DNA of 64,000 bases from a virus (lineage: Duplodnaviria; Caudoviricetes), in IMG/VR virus record IMGVR_UViG_3300021431_000084; one strand, 5' to 3'. The position numbers were made by a program, and so were the translations under genes. Positions 34,468-45,793 of the stretch are shown here, piece after piece (position 1 is the stretch's first letter; the number at the start of each line of letters is the position of its first letter). The notes beneath the pieces were generated by a model. The model was not told the DNA's origin and did no database searches. It saw only the letters and a program-made list of their open reading frames with translations.

Positions 34468-34559
34468 TGGCGATGGTACTCAGACTCGAACTGAGACGTC
34501 GCTTACACGACTACTCATGGTTTAGCAAACCACTGCCTTACCATTAGGCTTATACCATC
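34468..34559 (-). tRNA. tRNA-Ser(GCT)
   Basis: TTGCTAA loop, long variable arm, G73, CCA. Confidence 0.9.
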
Positions 34560-35935: not shown

Positions 35936-36009
35936 TGGTAGCTTCACCGAGATTCGAACTCGAATAGACAATCTTATGAGAATTGTTTGGGAACCAAACC
36001 CATGAAGCC
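35936..36009 (-). tRNA. tRNA-CAT (elongator Met or Ile2), short D-arm
   Basis: CTCATAA loop, GGCTTCA/TGAAGCT acceptor, CCA. Confidence 0.78.
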
Positions 36010-36102
36010 ATATCTCTTATTTTCTATATATATATTATAACATAAAAAATTAGAGTTGTCAAGGAAAATTTAAAGGGCCAACACTAATTGCGCGGCCCCC
36101 GT

Positions 36103-36177
36103 TGGAGTGAGTAACGGGATTTGGACCCGTGTCCCTGCCTTGGCAAGGCAGAATAATAACCACTATACGATACCCAC
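36103..36177 (-). tRNA. tRNA-Gly(GCC)
   Basis: TTGCCAA loop, U73, CCA. Confidence 0.88.
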
Positions 36178-36184
36178 ATTTATT

Positions 36185-36262
36185 TGGTGCTCGCACAAGG
36201 ATTCGAACCTTGGACCCCTTGCTTGTAAGGCAAATGCTCTCGACCAGCTGAGCTATGCGAGC
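36185..36262 (-). tRNA. tRNA-Val(TAC)
   Basis: CTTACAA loop, CCA. Confidence 0.92.
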
Positions 36263-36268
36263 ATGTAA

Positions 36269-36364
36269 ATGACGCTTTAAAGCCTCCCATAGGCGATTAC
36301 AAATTAAATGGCTTGTAATATAAGAATCGAACTTATTGTTAATTTGATTTGCTGTAAGCGTCAT
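36269..36364 (-). ncRNA. CAGCAA-stem RNA E1: Y-RNA-like, circularly permuted tRNA module
   Basis: ATGACGCTT/AAGCGTCAT stem, ACAGCAA, T-arm, ATTACAA-G-CCA, linker, TTGTAAT, D-like hairpin. Confidence 0.75.
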
Positions 36365-36376
36365 AAAAGAAGTTAA

Positions 36377-36473
36377 ATGACCCGAAGTGCTACGGGATTC
36401 GAACCCGCAATGTTTGATTAGCAGTCAAATTGTTTACCATAAACGAGCGTTTTGATTTGCTGATAAGGGTCAC
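36377..36473 (-). ncRNA. CAGCAA-stem RNA E2 enclosing Ser(GCT)-like D/anticodon/T arms
   Basis: GTGACCC/GGGTCAT stem, TCAGCAA, TTTGA-CTGCTAA-TCAAA, GCGGG-TTCGAAT-CCCGT; no CCA. Confidence 0.7.
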
Positions 36474-36749
36474 AAAAAAATAAATTGGGGGAGAGGGAAG
36501 ATAGGCGTTCCCCAACGCAATAGTTCCCTCAGGTGGGCTCTTTTTTACCCGCATCACCCAAGTCCGGAGCGGTACATTGACGGCTGTCCGCAAGCCTCTG
36601 GTGGGGATTTTGAAGTATCCCTAAACTTTAGAATGAGAGAAGTTAAGTTCAAATTTGATATTACGATACTGCCCCGCACCTTTTGGATAGTACTCTCCAA
36701 ATGTTCTTCTCTATTAAACTATCACAAATTTGATACTTAAAGTCCTCGT

Positions 36750-36829
36750 TGGTGGAGGATACGGGCACCGACCCCGTCTGAATTTTCTGCTTGCAAGGCA
36801 GACGACCACTCCGAGCAGTCCCATCCCCC
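36750..36829 (-). tRNA. tRNA-Ala(TGC)
   Basis: G3:U70, CTTGCAA loop, atypical T-loop, CCA. Confidence 0.85.
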
Positions 36830-36836
36830 ATAATGA

Positions 36837-36895
36837 ATGACGCACATAAAAAGAGATTTCAGGTCTTTTTGTTTTTGCTTTGCTGTTGGCGTCAT
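36837..36895 (-). ncRNA. CAGCAA-stem RNA E3 (minimal)
   Basis: ATGACGC/GCGTCAT stem, ACAGCAA, one internal hairpin. Confidence 0.65.
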
Positions 36896-36913
36896 ATAAA
36901 CTAAGTAAAAGTA

Positions 36914-36989
36914 TGGTGGGCCATAGAGGACTTGAACCTCCAACCTTCAGATTAAGAATCTGCTATTCTACCGATTGAATTAATGACCC
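36914..36989 (-). tRNA. tRNA-Lys(CTT)
   Basis: TTCTTAA loop, CCA. Confidence 0.9.
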
Positions 36990-36997
36990 ATATAAAA

Positions 36998-37369
36998 TCA
37001 ATTATCTCTAAAGTGCTTTTCTGCATGACAATTTGCACATAATAATTGGCATTTATCTATTTCTTTATACATTGGTTCTATATCATAATGACCTCTATTG
37101 TATAAAGCCGCTATTTCAAAATCTTTTTCATTTTCATCTATATGATGAAATTGAAGTGCTCCTATACACTTATTATAACCACAAATTTCACATTTTCCGC
37201 CTTTGTATTTAACAAGTTGTTTTTTTATAGCATGACGAATTGCAGTAATAGAAGCCGCTCTTGATTTATTATCATTAAAAGAAGGACTACATTCAAAGCA
37301 ATATTTTCTACTTTCACCATGTGATTTAGTTTCAAAATCTGCTCCACATATTATACATTTCTTTGTCAT
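36998..37369 (-). CDS. HNH endonuclease
   Basis: GGKCEICGY..C..AL.FHH...C.LLCANCH...H. Confidence 0.85.
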   Translation of the reverse strand: MTKKCIICGADFETKSHGESRKYCFECSPSFNDNKSRAASITAIRHAIKKQLVKYKGGKCEICGYNKCIGALQFHHIDENEKDFEIAALYNRGHYDIEPMYKEIDKCQLLCANCHAEKHFRDN

Positions 37370-37383
37370 AATAATTCTCCTCT

Positions 37384-37459
37384 TGGTGGTCAGTGTTGGT
37401 TTCGATCCAACCTCCTATGCTCTTCAGGCATATGCTTTCACCAGATTAGCTTACTGACC
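37384..37459 (-). tRNA. tRNA-Phe(GAA)
   Basis: CTGAAGA loop, CCA. Confidence 0.88.
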
Positions 37460-37466
37460 ATGATTT

Positions 37467-37543
37467 TGGTGCCCAAGACGGGAATTGAACCCGTAAAACC
37501 CTGATTTTGAAACAGATATCTATGCCAATTCGATTACTCGGGC
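37467..37543 (-). tRNA. tRNA-Leu(CAA) lacking a long variable arm
   Basis: Leu-type D-loop GAATTGGCATAGA, TTCAAAA loop, 5-nt variable region, A73, CCA. Confidence 0.7.
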
Positions 37544-37548
37544 ATAAC

Positions 37549-37624
37549 TGGCAGGTCGTGCAGGACTCGAACCCGCAAATACGGAGTAGAAATCCGAGGT
37601 TTTATCCAGTTAGACTAACGACCC
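37549..37624 (-). tRNA. tRNA-Arg(TCT)
   Basis: TTTCTAC loop, A20, CCA. Confidence 0.85.
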
Positions 37625-37631
37625 ATATGCT

Positions 37632-37715
37632 TGGTATCCGTGGAGAGACTTGAACTCTCATGCCGCGAAGCACTAGATCCTTAGTCTAGCGTGTCTGCCA
37701 TTCCACCACACGGAC
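37632..37715 (-). tRNA. tRNA-Leu(AAG)
   Basis: CTAGA-CTAAGGA-TCTAG arm, variable arm, CCA. Confidence 0.88.
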
Positions 37716-37826
37716 ATATAATGTCATTTGCTTTCTCACTCGCAAGTGGTTTGATGCTAACTGCCAATGACTTGACGGGGAGTAGGTTTTCATCTCCCGT
37801 GAACTCCTTGAAGTCCACCCGCTATT

Positions 37827-37902
37827 TGGTGACGCGTGCCGGACTCGAACCGACATCTCCAGCTTGAGAGGCTAGCCACCTATTCCATTAGTAGAACGCG
37901 CC
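37827..37902 (-). tRNA. tRNA-Glu(CTC)
   Basis: CTCTCAA loop, CCA. Confidence 0.87.
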
Positions 37903-37954
37903 ATGTATTAAAGATATTTCCACTTAAAGCCATAAGCAGATCTGTATGTTTTAC

Positions 37955-38028
37955 TGGTGCGGGTAGGGAGAATCGAACTCCCATCTCAAGTCCCCAAAGC
38001 TCGAAGTCTTCCTTTGACCTATACCCAC
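37955..38028 (-). tRNA. tRNA-Pro(GGG)
   Basis: TTGGGGA loop, CCA. Confidence 0.82.
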
Positions 38029-38390: not shown

Positions 38391-38464
38391 ATATCTCTTA
38401 CTTTTTACATATATATTATAACAAATTTTTTCAAGTTTGTCAATAACGATTTTTTTAACAAGTT

Positions 38465-39556: not shown

Positions 39557-41056
39557 TTATCTCTCCACAGAAATTTGTGCATATCTATCACTTAAGATAG
39601 TGGCAAGCATAGCCTCATAAGGTGTCTTATCAAGATTAGCAAGCAAAGTCTTAAATGTAGTTGCAGAGTGACCAGACAAAAGCTGTACGCCCTTTCTGTT
39701 GGCATCTGCATGGAATGTGTCAGACTGGCTGTTTACATTCCAGAAGATGACGTTAGGAATATCGTAACCGTAGTTAGCGAACTTTCTTCTCCAATCATCA
39801 TAGAATGTACCAGAAGCACGAACACAGCCGTTAATCTGCATATCAGAGATAATTACGAGTGCCTTAGGAAGATCCTTAGCGGCGATACGGTTGTTAACCG
39901 CAGTCTCAAGAACTACTCTGAAAGCAGCATCAAGATCTGTACTTCCAGCCCAATCTGCATTAACCATGTTACGAACTCTATCACACACAGTAGCACCTGT
40001 TACAGTAACCAACTTAGGGTTAGTAGAGAAAGTCATGAACTTATTGTGGAAAGGGCCGGTCGCACGCTCTGCGAAGTACATCGCCAAGCCAACAGAAGAT
40101 GCCATAGGCAAGTTGTTGTTGCTAGTCATAGAACCAGATACGTCTGCCATAATGAGTACGTTTGTACCGTCCTCAACATAGTTAGGAAGTGCCTTCCACT
40201 GGGCCTCAAGTACATCGTCTACTGTGCAACGAGAGTTATACCAAAAGCCATAACCACCAGCATTAAGATACTTCTGGACAATATCATAAGGGAAAAGAGT
40301 ATTAGCCTTAATCTCCTTCTTACCAGACTTTACATCATCGAGATACTCAACGAATCTTGCACCGTCCTTGCGTGAGAACAAGTTACGATACTTAGTCATA
40401 GCATTAGAAGGAACCTTATCATATGCGATAGTGCTTAACTCATTTGCAGAGATAGCAATCTCAACAATCTTAAGATACTTACGAAGTGCCTTAAGAGGTA
40501 CCTTAAATGAACGAACATTCTTAAATCCCAACTTCTGGGAAGTCAAAATGCCCAACTTACGAGTTGTAGGTGAAGATGCGTCAGGTGTCTTGATCCACTT
40601 CGCAAGAAGTGAAACAGGCTTTCCGGCAAGCATTGCTGCTCTATCCTTCTCGAACTGCTCCTTCATAACTCTCCACATATCGTTCTCACACTTAGTTCCG
40701 ATAAGGAAATACAAGTCATCAAAACGACCATAGTAACCAATAAGACCAATGTTAGGTCTTACAATCTCAGGATATCTATCTGCTGCATATGCAAGCAAAG
40801 TACGGAAAGTATCTCTCTCTCCGAGACCCTCACGAACATCTCTTCCGTAGAAGAGTATCTTTGCGGCGAGCTCCTTGTCCTCTGCGCAGGCTCTGTCGAA
40901 AAGCTCGTATCTACGAGCATCAGGAGCATTACGAAGTGCTCCAATAGTAGCGAAGAGGTCTACAAGACCCTCACCTGAAGATGACAAGCACTTTCTACCA
41001 TTAGCAGTAGAAGTCCAAGAAGTCTCTCTACCAAGTAAATCTGCGAAATTAGCCAT
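39557..41056 (-). CDS. DUF2828-family TROVE/Ro60-like protein with C-terminal vWA domain
   Basis: T.NG.....SS....VDLF, K.LFY.RD.R.G.GER..F, GRFDDL, SLLAKW, I.Y..VPS.AM, EAQW..L, MIDAS DVSGS, ISDMQ, IFWNV, LSG.S. Confidence 0.88.
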   Translation of the reverse strand: MANFADLLGRETSWTSTANGRKCLSSSGEGLVDLFATIGALRNAPDARRYELFDRACAEDKELAAKILFYGRDVREGLGERDTFRTLLAYAADRYPEIVRPNIGLIGYYGRFDDLYFLIGTKCENDMWRVMKEQFEKDRAAMLAGKPVSLLAKWIKTPDASSPTTRKLGILTSQKLGFKNVRSFKVPLKALRKYLKIVEIAISANELSTIAYDKVPSNAMTKYRNLFSRKDGARFVEYLDDVKSGKKEIKANTLFPYDIVQKYLNAGGYGFWYNSRCTVDDVLEAQWKALPNYVEDGTNVLIMADVSGSMTSNNNLPMASSVGLAMYFAERATGPFHNKFMTFSTNPKLVTVTGATVCDRVRNMVNADWAGSTDLDAAFRVVLETAVNNRIAAKDLPKALVIISDMQINGCVRASGTFYDDWRRKFANYGYDIPNVIFWNVNSQSDTFHADANRKGVQLLSGHSATTFKTLLANLDKTPYEAMLATILSDRYAQISVER

Positions 41057-41088: not shown

Positions 41089-41176
41089 TGGCGCTGTGGG
41101 AGAGATTCGAACTCTCAGAGCTTTCACACCCGACGGTTTTCAAGACCGCGCCTCCTCCCCACTAAGGTACCACAGC
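41089..41176 (-). tRNA. tRNA-Ser(TGA)
   Basis: CTTGAAA loop, long variable arm, G73, CCA; directly upstream of the DUF2828 gene. Confidence 0.88.
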
Positions 41177-41663: not shown

Positions 41664-42395
41664 TTATGCGTAAATAACTGTTTTATCTTCAAGGCGAATT
41701 GCCGCAAGCTTTCCTCCTGCGAATACACACCCACAATCTATATTGATACTATGTTCTCTGAAATATACATCAGACTTATTAGTATCATTCCATACAAATT
41801 GTGTAGGTGTATGCCCATGAATAAGAATTTCCTCATGCTCAGGCACATAATCATTGGTTAATACATTCGTATAATTGTTAATATCACGATACCAAAGAAT
41901 ATCATCACGATTAAGATTAGGACCATACCAAGCATGAGCAATTATATAATCTTGTTTATCTTTAATACTAACCTTTTTATATAAAGGCAAAGAAGAAAAC
42001 CAATCTACTATTGGTTTTACTGAAGCAACTGTATCAAACCCAGCTTCAGACATATAAGACACAAAGTCATAAGTACAATCAAGAGCTGAAATATCAAAAT
42101 CGTCCATACTTTGTATAGATGGAGAACACCAACCTTTTAAAAATCTACGATAACAACGATTATAATCATTGATTATATTGTCCTCATGATTTCCACATAT
42201 CATTTGGTATTTACCATCTTCGGTGACATGCTCCATGGCCCATTGAATCATTTTATATGACTCAACTCCACGGTCAATAATATCACCTATCAAAATGATA
42301 CAATCATCTGGTTCAATATCAGGCATTGATAAGAGTTTCATAAATCTTGTATAACAACCATGAATATCACCAACAACCCAAGTAGCCATAAACAT
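41664..42395 (-). CDS. PPP-family Ser/Thr phosphatase-like metallophosphoesterase
   Basis: GDIHG, GDIIDRG, GNHE, HGHTP, IDCGC. Start reset to MFMATW (the ORF-track start overlaps tRNA-Cys). Confidence 0.88.
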   Translation of the reverse strand: MFMATWVVGDIHGCYTRFMKLLSMPDIEPDDCIILIGDIIDRGVESYKMIQWAMEHVTEDGKYQMICGNHEDNIINDYNRCYRRFLKGWCSPSIQSMDDFDISALDCTYDFVSYMSEAGFDTVASVKPIVDWFSSLPLYKKVSIKDKQDYIIAHAWYGPNLNRDDILWYRDINNYTNVLTNDYVPEHEEILIHGHTPTQFVWNDTNKSDVYFREHSINIDCGCVFAGGKLAAIRLEDKTVIYA

Positions 42396-42412
42396 ATCTC
42401 CTTTCTTTAATT

Positions 42413-42490
42413 TGGAGCTAATGGTGGGATTCGAACCCACGAAACAACAGTTTTGCAAACTGAGGGCTTAAACCACTTACCTACATTAGC
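42413..42490 (-). tRNA. tRNA-Cys(GCA)
   Basis: TTGCAAA loop, U73, CCA. Confidence 0.85.
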
Positions 42491-42985: not shown

Positions 42986-43075
42986 ATGACCCCAGACGCG
43001 GTTTCTTCAAAACCGCTTAAAAAACAATGGCGAAGAAAAAATATTTAATCAAGATTGTTTTGCGGTTGAGGTCAT
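42986..43075 (-). ncRNA. CAGCAA-stem RNA E4
   Basis: ATGACCTC/GGGGTCAT stem, AACCGCAA, internal GCGGTTT..AAACCGC hairpin. Confidence 0.62.
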
Positions 43076-43083
43076 ATATAAAA

Positions 43084-43260
43084 ATGACTGATAGGGACTA
43101 CTTTCTCAGATTTCTGGCGAGTCTACCCCAGTGTGCCTTTTCTGGATAAAAGTTTCATAGGAATAATTTTAGCACTTTTATCAGTCTGCATTTCCCATAT
43201 TTGCATAGTAGAATTTTATACTATAAACCATTTTAATAGAATTTGCAGTTAATCAGTCAC
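43084..43260 (-). ncRNA. CAGCAA-stem RNA E5 (long)
   Basis: GTGACTGAT/ATCAGTCAT stem, AACTGCAA. Confidence 0.62.
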
Positions 43261-44913: not shown

Positions 44914-44998
44914 CCTTCTTAACTTTTGTATATATATTATAACATAAAAATTTTTCTTTGTCAAAGAAGATTTTTTTAGGGGTGTATAAGTATATAAA

Positions 44999-45793
44999 TT
45001 ATTCTAATAACTCTTTTAACATCTTTGCCCTAAGAGGATTACGCAATTTTCTATATGCTCTCAATTCTATCTGTCTAATACGCTCCTCACATCTATGAAA
45101 AGTTTTAGCTATTTCCGCAACGGATTTCTCCTCAAAAAAGTGCATTTCTAATATCTGTGCTTCTCTATCTGAGAGAGAACCAAATATCTTCTTGATCCTG
45201 TCAATGCGATCCGCTTCCTCAGCCGCCGCACTTGGAGATTCAATAGAAGTATCTTCAATTAATGCATCAAAGCCATCATCTTCATCTTCATTAATTTGAG
45301 CATTTAAACTTGAAGGCTCATACATTAAAATCATCAATTCCTTCACCTTATCAAGTCCAAATTTAGTCTTTTCTGCTATTTCCTCTTCTTTTGGTTCTCT
45401 CTGCAAAGTTGCATATAACTCTCTTTTGGCGTCTTTAATCTTCTTCAAGTCAGCACTTACATTTTCCGGTCTGGTAATCATATGTCCTTGTTCATATAAA
45501 GCCCTTGTTATTCTCTGTCTTATCCACCAAGTAGCATGTGTACTAAACCTGCATCCTCTTTCAGGATTGTATCTCTTTGCCGCCTCAATGAGACCTATAT
45601 TTCCCTCTTGGATTAAATCCAAAAGGGAAAGACCTCTATTCATAAACTTCTTTGCAATAGAAACGACCAATCTCAAGTTACTATTTATTAACTTTTCTGT
45701 ATCTCCTGTATTTGCAGCTTCTACCTCTTCACCAAAAGTAAGAAGAGGAAACTGAGAAATTTCTTTAAGATACATCTGAACTGAATCGTCCAT
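44999..45793 (-). CDS. Phage sigma-70 family factor (RpoD-like regions 1.2-4)
   Basis: DSVQMYLKEI..PLLT, NLRLVVSIAK, DLIQEGNIGL, RFST.ATWWIRQ, ERIRQIE..A.RKLR. Confidence 0.93.
   Translation of the reverse strand: MDDSVQMYLKEISQFPLLTFGEEVEAANTGDTEKLINSNLRLVVSIAKKFMNRGLSLLDLIQEGNIGLIEAAKRYNPERGCRFSTHATWWIRQRITRALYEQGHMITRPENVSADLKKIKDAKRELYATLQREPKEEEIAEKTKFGLDKVKELMILMYEPSSLNAQINEDEDDGFDALIEDTSIESPSAAAEEADRIDRIKKIFGSLSDREAQILEMHFFEEKSVAEIAKTFHRCEERIRQIELRAYRKLRNPLRAKMLKELLE

What the first reader, a model, noticed from the sequence alone, without database searches (positions are those of the whole stretch)
36377..36473. tRNA-Ser(GCT)-like arms capped by the CAGCAA stem instead of a normal acceptor end
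Inside the GTGACCC/GGGTCAT stem are a D-arm (GTTT ATGGT AAAC), an anticodon arm TTTGA-CTGCTAA-TCAAA and a T-arm GCGGG-TTCGAAT-CCCGT, in normal order. There is no CCA, no full acceptor stem and no Ser variable arm, while a normal tRNA-Ser(GCT) exists at 34468. It looks like an unchargeable anticodon-presenting decoy tethered to the Ro-like protein. E4 likewise holds GCGGTTTTGAAGAAACCGC, resembling this phage's Ser(TGA) arm GCGGTCTTGAAAACCGT.
Basis: partly seen in the sequence, partly recalled or inferred. Interest (0 to 1): 0.72.

Follow-up and report, generated by a model that had tools for sequence, protein, structure and literature searches.

The report
tRNA-shaped partner RNA of phage Ro60-like protein
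This 97-base gene in a gut or rumen phage's tRNA cluster is not a decayed tRNA but a conserved small RNA: a tRNA body with its acceptor end cut to 3 base pairs, mounted on the "handle" that travels with a Ro60-like phage protein, so the anticodon arm is displayed, possibly as bait for host tRNA-cutting defences.

Summary
On the minus strand, 36377-36473 holds a 7-bp terminal stem (GUGACCC/GGGUCAU). An unpaired UUAU-CAGCAAA motif follows. Inside are a D arm, an anticodon arm (loop CUGCUAA) and a T arm in normal order. The acceptor stem is cut to 3 bp. There is no CCA, although all 31 other tRNA genes in the window encode one. There is no Ser variable arm.

It is not simple decay. Close relatives keep the element, and none carries an intact tRNA there. 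Phages whose Ro-like proteins are only about 40% identical carry the same design, with every helix kept by compensatory changes.

The handle marks a large RNA family lying beside genes for a DUF2828 protein, whose predicted fold matches Ro60. Many members carry only an anticodon stem-loop. In those, the triplet switches between phages whose neighbouring gene is 99.6% identical.

My reading is a Y-RNA-like partner of the Ro60-like protein that displays a tRNA anticodon arm. Protein binding is inferred. The decoy role is plausible but untested.

It is a new variant of the Ro60/Y-RNA kind. The handle also matches the motif of Dictyostelium Class I RNAs. This scan has already noted the handle/Ro-like system on other DNA (10 notes hold these terms) and on sibling elements of this window.

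The parts
36377..36473 (-). Whole element (E2): handle plus acceptor-truncated tRNA-like body, 97 nt
   Evidence: 97-99% identical in L027 and L029, and kept in L030
36467..36473 (-). Handle stem, 5' strand GUGACCC
   Evidence: Pairs with 36377-36383 at probability 0.73-1.0. Across the family this helix is 99.8% paired, and 6 of 7 pairs show changes on both sides.
36377..36383 (-). Handle stem, 3' strand GGGUCAU
36456..36462 (-). Unpaired handle motif CAGCAAA, preceded by UUAU
   Evidence: ACAGCAA is invariant or nearly so in alignment A3. It matches the Rfam RF01414 consensus CCUUA-CAGCAA.
36446..36448 (-). Acceptor remnant, 5' strand GCU (pairs with AGC at 36389-36391)
   Evidence: Rfam tRNA alignment. 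The 3-bp remnant covaries in L072, L092, L068 and L018.
36389..36391 (-). Acceptor remnant, 3' strand AGC, followed by ACUUC; no CCA
36432..36444 (-). D arm GUUU-AUGGU-AAAC, with the GG of a D loop
36413..36429 (-). Anticodon arm UUUGA-CUGCUAA-UCAAA; anticodon GCU at 36420-36422; reads U36-A-A-U-C-A41
36392..36408 (-). T arm GCGGG-UUCGAAU-CCCGU with a canonical T loop
   Evidence: pairing probability about 1.0
39557..41056 (-). Gene for the Ro60-like protein (DUF2828 + DUF7788/vWA, 499 aa), the presumed protein partner
   Evidence: Pfam; PHROG 850 'RNA-binding protein'; model pLDDT 88.7; the top 13 PDB fold matches are all Ro60/TROVE
38415..38443 (-). Perfect consensus promoter of the tRNA transcription unit that holds E2 (next perfect consensus promoter on this strand at 36034-36062)
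36269..36364 (-). Sibling handle RNA E1, 12 nt downstream of E2
   Evidence: R1 hit of 23.4 bits
36837..36895 (-). Sibling handle RNA E3
42986..43075 (-). Sibling handle RNA E4
43084..43260 (-). Sibling handle RNA E5 (motif CUGCAAA)

Best explanation
E2 is a stable non-coding RNA, not a tRNA and not a pseudogene.

**What it is.** It belongs to a large family of phage RNAs built on one handle. The 5' and 3' ends pair in a 7-9 bp stem, followed on the 5' side by the unpaired motif (U)UA-CAGCAA. These RNAs are encoded beside, and on the strand of, a gene for a Ro60-shaped protein (the DUF2828 family). By analogy with Ro60 and Y RNAs, the handle is the protein-binding module and the variable interior is the cargo. 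This step is inferred.

**E2's cargo.** It is a nearly whole tRNA body in natural order (D arm, anticodon arm, T arm). The acceptor stem is cut to 3 bp and runs into the handle. The protein would therefore sit at the acceptor end. The elbow and the anticodon loop (CUGCUAA, anticodon GCU) would point away from it.

**How it probably works.** The RNA cannot be charged and is unlikely to be cut by RNase P as a tRNA would be. It is transcribed with the phage tRNAs from a strong promoter. The most likely role is tRNA mimicry on a Ro-like particle. The displayed anticodon arm would engage a protein that reads tRNA anticodon arms. The best candidate is a host tRNA-cleaving defence nuclease, with the RNA acting as bait, competitor or sensor. 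A tRNA repair or modification enzyme is the second candidate.

**Shown:** the anatomy, its conservation, covariation, linkage to the gene, and the Ro60-like predicted fold.
**Inferred:** protein binding, and mimicry of a particular tRNA.
**Speculative:** the decoy action.
For: **Anatomy**
- Stem, motif and arms are as described.
- No CCA is encoded, although all 31 other tRNAs of the window encode one.
- It is not a recent copy of any tRNA in the window.

**Conservation**
- L029 is 99% and L027 97% identical. Their few changes all fall in linkers.
- In L030 (protein 87% identical) the first 78 nt are identical except for U36 to A, giving anticodon GCA. The T stem shrinks to 3 bp.

**Same architecture in distant phages** (protein 39-41% identical)
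- L072 and L092 (GCU), L068 (GCG), L018 twice, and L133 (GCU; its acceptor remnant was not resolved).
- In L072, L092, L068 and L018 the acceptor remnant, D, anticodon and T helices are all kept by compensatory changes.

**Family level**
- The covariance model finds 84 hits in 80 loci, 82 of them on the strand of the gene.
- The handle helix is 99.8% paired, with 6 of 7 pairs changed on both sides. The anticodon-type helix has 5 of 5 pairs changed on both sides.
- Handles occur 828 times against about 320 in shuffles. Handles with an anticodon-like hairpin occur 101 times against about 9.

**Anticodon-only members**
- The triplet switches among GCU, GUU, UUU and UUG between phages whose neighbouring gene is up to 99.6% identical, while C32, U33, A37 and A38 stay.

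**Protein**
- The predicted fold matches Ro60/TROVE over the full length.
- The homologue bas63_0130 (38% identical, E 8e-80) is gp130 of phage Bas63, reported to counter the Ppl defence. Bas63 also has a handle RNA among its tRNAs.

**Context**
- Perfect promoters place E2 in a tRNA operon.
- tRNA-cleaving defences, and phage tRNAs that evade them, are documented (PMC10264068, PMC11555353, PMC12409363).
- E2's arm reads U36-A-A-U-C-A41, the sequence at which AriB of PARIS cuts E. coli tRNA-Lys.
Against: - No binding, expression or processing data exist for this RNA.
- The Rfam YrlA model does not hit it.
- My handle-plus-anticodon model (R1) does not recover E2 as a whole. Only its anticodon arm matches, at 9.8 bits.
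- Thermodynamic folding prefers another fold of the interior: -22.3 against -15.6 kcal/mol for the cloverleaf.
- Bas63 gp130 countered Ppl when expressed alone in T7 or from a plasmid, so the protein can act without phage RNAs. Ppl is not known to cut tRNA.
- In E2-type RNAs G34-C35 is conserved across deep divergence. That fits poorly with a fast arms race at the triplet and suggests a fixed ligand or a link to the handle motif.
- The AriB motif match is 6 nt and was found after the fact.
- The hosts (probably Lachnospiraceae) and their defences are unknown.
Confidence: 0.6

Rival explanations
1. The loop CUGCUAA is not an anticodon mimic. It is a second copy of the handle motif, or a pairing partner for it. 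Either would make E2-type RNAs bivalent (two Ro-like protomers per RNA) or self-regulating (loop-motif pairing that hides the motif until the protein binds).
For: - In 6 of 8 E2-type RNAs the loop is C-U-G-C-N-A-A, against the handle motif C-A-G-C-N-A-A (5-6 of 7 identical).
- In E2, CAGCAAAUCAAA (motif plus linker) against CUGCUAAUCAAA (loop plus 3' stem) is 10 of 12 identical.
- The minimum-energy fold pairs AGCA of the motif with UGCU of the loop.
- G34-C35 is kept across lineages whose stems have fully diverged.
- Phage phiLo Ro60 forms dimers on a Y-like RNA (PMC12135203).
Against: - The alternative fold is not conserved in L072 or L092 (read from the sequences).
- Anticodon-only family members carry UUU, GUU, UUG, GUA, UCC and CAU, which do not resemble the motif.
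- The loop keeps U33, where the motif has A.
- The full D and T arms would be unnecessary for this role.
Confidence: 0.15
2. A decaying tRNA pseudogene that happens to lie between inverted repeats.
For: The tRNA score is low (35.2 bits). The acceptor is degenerate and there is no CCA. In L030 the T stem is weakened.
Against: - The element and its stem are conserved in L027, L029 and L030.
- The same truncated architecture, with compensatory changes, is found in L072, L092, L068, L018 and L133.
- The handle motif is shared with more than 80 elements linked to the DUF2828 gene.
- No relative has an intact tRNA at this site.
Confidence: 0.04
3. An unusual but working tRNA or tRNA precursor. The handle would be a processing signal, and the body would be released, CCA-tailed and charged.
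For: M. smegmatis YrlA is cut by RNase P and gets CCA in vivo (PMC4201824). The D arm, anticodon arm and T arm are canonical.
Against: - Only 3 bp of acceptor stem remain. Chen et al. attribute RNase P cleavage to a 7-bp acceptor stem.
- Bacterial Ser identity rests on the long variable arm (established knowledge), which is absent.
- The phage already has a normal tRNA-Ser(GCU).
- The ortholog in L030 reads GCA on the same body.
Confidence: 0.05
4. A cis-acting processing or stability element of the polycistronic tRNA transcript, working without the Ro-like protein.
For: It lies inside a tRNA operon. The elements are interleaved with tRNAs.
Against: - The handle follows the DUF2828 gene across phages of Firmicutes, Actinobacteria and Proteobacteria, even where few tRNAs are nearby.
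- A conserved single-stranded motif plus a variable cargo is the design of a protein-bound RNA.
- Dictyostelium RNAs with the same motif are abundant, stable RNAs (PMC7919456).
Confidence: 0.08

Closest known systems
YrlA / bacterial and phage Y RNAs bound by Ro60 (Rsr); Rfam RF02553; Chen et al. 2014 (PMC4201824); Thermus phage phiLo Ro60 with Yrl1/Yrl2 (PMC12135203)
   Same: - A small RNA whose 5' and 3' ends form a stem, with a conserved unpaired motif on the 5' strand.
- Encoded near a gene for a Ro60-fold protein.
- The interior mimics tRNA, with canonical T and D arms.
- Also found in phages.
   Different: - The protein belongs to Pfam DUF2828, not TROVE.
- The motif is (U)UACAGCAA, not GNCGAA(N)G or CGAA.
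- In YrlA the order is permuted (T, acceptor-like stem-loop, D), the Ro-binding stem stands where the anticodon stem would be, and the acceptor-like end is exposed. In E2 the order is natural, the handle stands at the acceptor end, and the anticodon arm is exposed.
- RF02553 gives no hit on E2 at E < 10.
Deinococcus radiodurans Yrn1
   Same: According to Chen et al. it can be drawn with T and D features and a 5-bp anticodon-like arm between them, which is the natural order as in E2.
   Different: Yrn1's loop has 6 nt and there is no clear D arm or variable region. Its Ro-binding helix resembles the metazoan one. I did not compare sequences here.
Dictyostelium Class I RNAs (Rfam RF01414; Kjellin et al. 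2021, PMC7919456)
   Same: - A short stem joins the 5' and 3' ends.
- An 11-nt motif CCUUACAGCAA lies next to the 5' strand. E2 has CCUUAUCAGCAA, and many phage members have GCUUACAGCAA.
- The interior is variable and the 5'-terminal region is G-rich.
- The Rfam model aligns E2's 5' half at 17.1 bits and the whole of L042:9891-9941 at 25.1 bits.
   Different: - All scores are below the gathering score of 41.5.
- Class I RNAs are 42-65 nt, eukaryotic, and were reported as unique to Dictyostelia.
- Their known direct binder is the RRM protein Rnp1A.
- No tRNA-like cargo has been described.
- Whether dictyostelids have a DUF2828 protein could not be tested with these tools.
Phage tRNAs that evade tRNA-targeting defences (van den Berg et al. 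2023, PMC10264068; Azam et al. 2024, PMC11555353; AriB/PARIS, PMC12409363)
   Same: tRNA-shaped RNAs encoded in a phage tRNA cluster whose anticodon-arm sequence matters in conflicts with host nucleases.
   Different: Those are working, chargeable tRNAs that replace the cleaved host tRNAs. E2 cannot be charged and is mounted on a protein-binding handle.

Membership tests
Functional bacterial-type tRNA (tRNA-Ser) | 7-bp acceptor stem with U8/N9 linker | tested here: not met
   Only the 3-bp remnant GCU/AGC is present. Rfam model positions 4-9 and 66-69 are deleted. ARAGORN's 7-bp version has 2 mismatches.
Functional bacterial-type tRNA (tRNA-Ser) | 3' CCA, encoded in every other tRNA of this phage | tested here: not met
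   All 31 other tRNAs encode CCA. E2 continues AGC-ACUUC-GGGUCAU.
Functional bacterial-type tRNA (tRNA-Ser) | Long variable arm, the identity element for SerRS | tested here: not met
   The variable region is 4 nt (CAUU). The genuine Ser tRNAs at 34468 and 41089 have long arms.
Functional bacterial-type tRNA (tRNA-Ser) | D arm, 7-nt anticodon loop with U33 and a purine at 37, and a T loop UUCRANY | tested here: met
YrlA (Rfam RF02553) | Score at or above the family's gathering score (69 bits) | tested here: not met
   No RF02553 match on E2 at E <= 10.
YrlA (Rfam RF02553) | GNCGAAN0-1G motif on the 5' strand of the Ro-binding module | tested here: not met
   The motif here is UUAUCAGCAAA.
YrlA (Rfam RF02553) | Permuted tRNA-like domain (T arm, acceptor-like stem-loop, D arm) | tested here: not met
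   The order is natural: D, anticodon, T.
YrlA (Rfam RF02553) | Encoded near a Ro60 ortholog | tested here: inconclusive
   E2 lies 3.1 kb downstream of a protein with a Ro60-like fold, on the same strand. That protein is DUF2828, not TROVE, and shows no sequence match to solved Ro60 structures.
Dictyostelium Class I RNA (Rfam RF01414) | Terminal stem plus the 11-nt motif CCUUACAGCAA next to its 5' strand | tested here: met
   E2 reads GUGACC-CUUAUCAGCAA, with one inserted U.
Dictyostelium Class I RNA (Rfam RF01414) | Gathering score of 41.5 bits; length 42-65 nt | tested here: not met
   17.1 bits on E2's 5' half, and E2 is 97 nt long. The best phage member scores 25.1 bits.
Handle RNAs linked to DUF2828 (Ro60-like) genes (family defined in this scan, not published as such) | 7-9 bp stem joining the ends, with G-C at the third pair and C-G closing the stem next to the motif | tested here: met
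   E2 reads G-U-G-A-C-C-C / G-G-G-U-C-A-U. In the family, column 4 is G-C in 76 of 76 sequences and column 8 is C-G in 73 of 76.
Handle RNAs linked to DUF2828 (Ro60-like) genes (family defined in this scan, not published as such) | Unpaired ACAGCAA-type motif 1-4 nt after the 5' strand | tested here: met
   UUAU-CAGCAAA.
Handle RNAs linked to DUF2828 (Ro60-like) genes (family defined in this scan, not published as such) | Same strand as, and near, a DUF2828 gene | tested here: met
   Gene at 39557-41056 (-). Five sibling handle elements lie within 7 kb. In the family, 82 of 84 hits are on the strand of the gene.
Handle RNAs linked to DUF2828 (Ro60-like) genes (family defined in this scan, not published as such) | Bound by the DUF2828 protein | not testable with these tools
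   Needs pull-down or gel-shift experiments.

The most novel reading that the evidence does not exclude
Phage Ro60-like particles carry exchangeable anticodon stem-loops, or in E2 a whole acceptor-less tRNA body, as bait or sensor for host nucleases that cut tRNA anticodon arms. The displayed triplet sets which nuclease or tRNA is matched, and it is re-tuned by single substitutions between near-identical phages. The same handle/Ro-like pairing would also explain the orphan Class I RNAs of Dictyostelium.
Probability: 0.25. Interest if true: 0.85.

Novelty: new variant of a known kind. Interest (0 to 1): 0.62.

Why it matters
**Annotation.** tRNA finders call these RNAs tRNAs. Examples are ARAGORN's tRNA-Ser here, "tRNA-Asn" in the GenBank record of mycobacteriophage Gardann, and the ARAGORN calls of tRNA-Tyr, Pro, Leu and Arg in other loci. 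Phage tRNA counts and codon-usage arguments are inflated by RNAs that cannot be charged.

**Biology.** The element extends tRNA mimicry by Y RNAs to a second branch of Ro60-fold proteins (DUF2828) that is very common in large phages: 709 phage records match the protein. It does so with the opposite topology, hiding the acceptor end and showing the anticodon.

**A route to experiments.** One member of the protein family, Bas63 gp130, has a published anti-defence phenotype, and Bas63 carries a handle RNA. The role of these RNAs can therefore be tested directly in E. coli.

**If the bait idea holds,** it would be a new type of counter-defence against the growing list of tRNA-cleaving immune systems.

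Tried and rejected
- **DNA search of phage records.** Megablast of 36000-38000 against 50,697 phage records gave no match.
- **Sequence search of PDB.** The protein gave no hit at E <= 1. Only the fold search shows the Ro60 likeness.
- **Rfam YrlA.** No hit on E2. There are only weak partial hits on real tRNA pairs, and 21-26 bits on relatives.
- **My model R1.** It finds E1 and E3 but not E2 as a whole, because the D and T arms count as long insertions. E2's family membership therefore rests on direct reading of the stem and motif and on its neighbours.
- **Single-sequence folding.** It does not return the cloverleaf.
- **The look-up of encoding contigs.** The contigs of the 87% and 69% identical proteins P0003 and P0005 could not be fetched that way. 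L030 and L088 from the metagenome scan served instead.
- **Strict DNA pattern for E2-type RNAs in IMG/VR.** It gave 3 hits, of which only L133 is real.
- **Origin by duplication.** E2 is not a recent copy of the phage's own tRNA-Ser(GCU) or of any other tRNA in the window.
- **Anticodons as readers of handle triplets.** I asked whether cargo anticodons are complementary to triplets of the handle (UAC, ACA, AGC, CAA, AAU). By reading the sequences, 5 of about 14 distinct anticodons fit. The idea was post hoc and was dropped.
- **DUF2828 in Dictyostelium.** Its presence could not be tested. The libraries give no names for such hits, and I did not type sequences from memory.

Full report

Yes. 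On the minus strand, 36473-36377 reads as follows:
- GUGACCC, the 5' strand of the terminal stem;
- UUAU-CAGCAAA-UCAAAAC, unpaired;
- GCU, then C;
- GUUU-AUGGU-AAAC, the D arm, then AA;
- UUUGA-CUGCUAA-UCAAA, the anticodon arm;
- CAUU, the variable region;
- GCGGG-UUCGAAU-CCCGU, the T arm;
- AGC, then ACUUC;
- GGGUCAU, the 3' strand of the terminal stem.

ARAGORN calls tRNA-Ser(gct) at 36384-36452. The Rfam tRNA model gives 35.2 bits, above its gathering score of 29. It reaches that only by deleting most of the acceptor stem and positions 8-9.

All 31 other tRNA genes found in the window encode their 3' CCA. This element does not. It has a 4-nt variable region, whereas the phage's genuine tRNA-Ser(GCU) at 34468 and tRNA-Ser(UGA) at 41089 have long variable arms. 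It is not a recent copy of any tRNA in the window.

**2. Is it simple decay?**

No.

*Close relatives.* The metagenome scan with the neighbouring protein returned close relatives.
- L029 and L027 (protein 93-95% identical) carry the element at 99% and 97% identity. Their few differences all fall in linkers.
- In L030 (protein 87% identical) the terminal stem, the motif, the D arm and the anticodon stem are unchanged.
- In L030 the anticodon has changed from GCU to GCA, and the T stem and acceptor remnant are remodelled.
- No relative has an intact tRNA at this site.

*Distant relatives.* I asked which ARAGORN tRNA calls in all fetched loci are enclosed by a handle. This found the same design in phages whose Ro-like proteins are only 39-41% identical to the window's:
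- L072 and L092, both with loop CUGCUAA;
- L068, with CUGCGAA;
- two in L018;
- L133, from a pattern scan of IMG/VR, with CUGCUAA. It lies 230 nt upstream of a DUF2828 gene, and its acceptor remnant was not resolved.

In L072, L092, L068 and L018 the acceptor is reduced to 3 bp. It reads GCU/AGC, UGC/GCA, UAG/CUA, UGA/UCA or AUA/UAU. The D, anticodon and T helices are kept with different sequences, the variable region is 4 nt, and no CCA follows the T arm (read from the sequences). A truncated acceptor that is maintained by compensatory changes is a design, not a remnant.

**3. What family is it?**

*The handle in the window.* The stem plus (U)UA-CAGCAA occurs five or six times on the minus strand, at 36269-36364, 36377-36473, 36837-36895, 42986-43075 and 43084-43260.

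*The handle in relatives.* It lies directly beside relatives of the gene at 39557-41056. A covariance model built from nine 60-nt members found 84 matches in 80 loci. Of these, 82 are on the strand of the gene and most lie within a few hundred bases of it.

*Covariation.* On the resulting alignment:
- The handle helix is 99.8% paired, and 6 of 7 pairs change on both sides.
- One G-C pair is invariant in 76 of 76 sequences.
- The inner 5-bp helix has changes on both sides at all 5 pairs.
- That alignment is fitted to the model, which favours the structure.

*Controls.* The slid-partner controls fall to 24-54% paired. Shuffled sequence gives about 320 handles against 828 real ones. It gives about 9 handles with an anticodon-like hairpin against 101.

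*Other phage groups.* The handle is also present next to:
- the "Ro-like RNA binding protein" of mycobacteriophage Gardann. There, an element annotated tRNA-Asn is in fact handle + CUGUUAA hairpin + T arm + stem-loop + D arm, a YrlA-like permuted domain;
- the tRNA genes of E. coli phage Bas63.

**4. The protein.**
- Pfam: DUF2828 + DUF7788/vWA.
- PHROG 850: "RNA-binding protein".
- No sequence match in PDB.
- The AlphaFold model is confident: pLDDT 88.7, pTM 0.89.
- Its 13 best PDB fold matches are all Ro60/TROVE structures. They include Xenopus and human Ro60, Deinococcus Rsr and Thermus phage phiLo Ro60, over the full length at TM 0.43-0.60.
- 709 phage records encode a relative.
- The relative in Bas63, bas63_0130, is 38% identical at E 8e-80. 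It is the gp130 shown by PhageMaP to counter the Ppl defence. It did so even when moved into T7. The authors guessed that some of the adjacent "tRNAs" might be Y RNAs.

**5. What is the cargo for?**

*What the family carries.* The interior of each RNA is a piece of tRNA:
- an anticodon-type hairpin alone (53-70 nt RNAs);
- a hairpin plus T arm;
- a T arm with a D-loop-like UGGU;
- or, as here, D arm + anticodon arm + T arm.

*The hairpin loops.* They follow the anticodon-loop rule, C32-U33-NNN-A37-A38. The central triplet varies: GCU, GUU, UUU, UUG, GUA, UGU, UCC, GCA, CAU, GCC and others.

*Triplet switching.* In one clade of 15 distinct orthologous 60-nt RNAs, the three anticodon positions are among the most variable columns, while the rest of the loop is fixed. 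On a tree of the adjacent gene the triplet changes at least six times. L006 (UUU) and L039 (GUU) differ there although their neighbouring genes are 99.6% identical.

*Contrast in E2-type RNAs.* These keep G34-C35 across deep divergence and vary only position 36 (U, A or G).

*Topology.* The handle replaces the acceptor end. A protein bound there would leave the elbow and anticodon loop exposed. In YrlA it is the reverse: the Ro-binding stem stands in place of the anticodon stem.

*Transcription.* E2 lies between perfect consensus promoters at 38443 and 36062. It is therefore made together with about 12 tRNAs.

**6. Mechanism.**

The best-supported reading is a Y-RNA-like partner RNA. The handle would bind the Ro60-like ring, and the tRNA-like module would act as a mimic that engages a tRNA-recognising factor.

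I favour a host nuclease that targets tRNA anticodon arms, for four reasons:
- Such nucleases are common anti-phage effectors, and phage tRNA clusters are known to answer them (PMC10264068, PMC11555353, PMC12409363).
- The family's protein has an anti-defence phenotype.
- The triplet turns over fast in the small members.
- E2's arm reads U36-A-A-U-C-A41, the site at which AriB of PARIS cuts E. coli tRNA-Lys and tRNA-Thr.

None of this shows decoy action. The AriB match is short and was found after the fact. Ppl is not known to cut tRNA. gp130 worked without phage RNAs.

A metallophosphoesterase gene at 41664-42458 in the same cluster resembles the end-healing domain of kinase-phosphatase-ligase RNA repair proteins in PHROG terms. 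A repair-platform role, as proposed for cellular Ro/TROVE proteins in PMC7824862, therefore stays open.

**7. An unexplained feature.**
- In E2 the motif plus linker, CAGCAAAUCAAA, is 10 of 12 identical to the loop plus 3' stem, CUGCUAAUCAAA.
- In six of eight E2-type RNAs the loop is CUGCNAA, against the handle's CAGCNAA.
- The minimum-energy fold pairs AGCA of the motif with UGCU of the loop and scores 6.7 kcal/mol better than the cloverleaf.
- This could mean a second protein-binding site or a conformational switch. I keep it as the main rival.

**8. Comparison with known families.**

E2 works like YrlA and Yrn1, that is, as a tRNA-mimicking Y RNA. It fails the membership tests for YrlA: a different motif, a different order of arms, a different protein family, and no Rfam hit.

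The handle is nearly the same as the defining stem plus CCUUACAGCAA motif of Dictyostelium Class I RNAs.
- The Rfam model RF01414 aligns E2's 5' half at 17.1 bits.
- It aligns a 51-nt phage member end to end at 25.1 bits.
- The gathering score is 41.5.
- Kjellin et al. used 25 as their candidate threshold and reported the class as unique to dictyostelids.
- I found this match independently. A later look-up showed that earlier reports of this scan had noted it on other genomes.

**9. Verdict.**

E2 is a new variant of the Ro60/Y-RNA kind: an acceptor-truncated, natural-order tRNA body on a DUF2828-type handle. Its function as bait is plausible at about 25-30% and can be tested directly in the Bas63/E. 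coli system.

Noticed in passing
window 36750-36829 (-): The tRNA-Ala(UGC) called by ARAGORN is aberrant. It keeps the acceptor stem with G3-U70, the CCA and the anticodon arm. Its D and T regions are replaced by unrelated sequence, and the Rfam tRNA model does not hit it. L030 has the same odd form, while L029 has a normal tRNA-Ala at this place.
   Followed up: partly
window 36480-36750 (-): About 270 nt between the odd tRNA-Ala and E2 is G+C-rich and has no ORF of 80 aa or more on the strand of the tRNA genes. It is about 95% conserved in L029 and L030. There is no Rfam match beyond weak tmRNA-like hits of 10-13 bits. It is probably another structured RNA.
   Followed up: no
L038:1318-1375 (+): A good match to the handle model (34.1 bits, E 1.6e-5) lies inside the coding sequence of that locus's DUF2828 gene (ORF 779-2275). 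It could be chance or a binding site in the protein's own mRNA.
   Followed up: partly
L124:4533-4655 (Mycobacterium phage Gardann, KX507361 42088-42210): The annotated tRNA-Asn lies inside a handle RNA: motif ACAGUAA, hairpin loop CUGUUAA, T arm, stem-loop and D arm. Two further handle RNAs flank it, directly after the 'Ro-like RNA binding protein' gene.
   Followed up: partly
window 41664-42458 (-): A calcineurin-like metallophosphoesterase gene sits among the tRNA and handle-RNA genes. In PHROGs it matches the middle part of families named NinI-like phosphatase and RNA ligase, so it may be an RNA end-healing enzyme.
   Followed up: no
window, minus strand, first hexamers at 44964, 44714, 41234, 39536, 38443 and 36062: Six perfect TTGACA-17-TGnTATAAT promoters punctuate the tRNA and Ro-like region. 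A sigma-70-family gene lies at 44999-45793.
   Followed up: no
L053:5179-5235, L055:3940-3995, L058:7612-7668: Several handle RNAs carry a hairpin loop CCUGAAA. This is a tRNA-Ser(UGA)-type loop with C instead of the universal U33.
   Followed up: no
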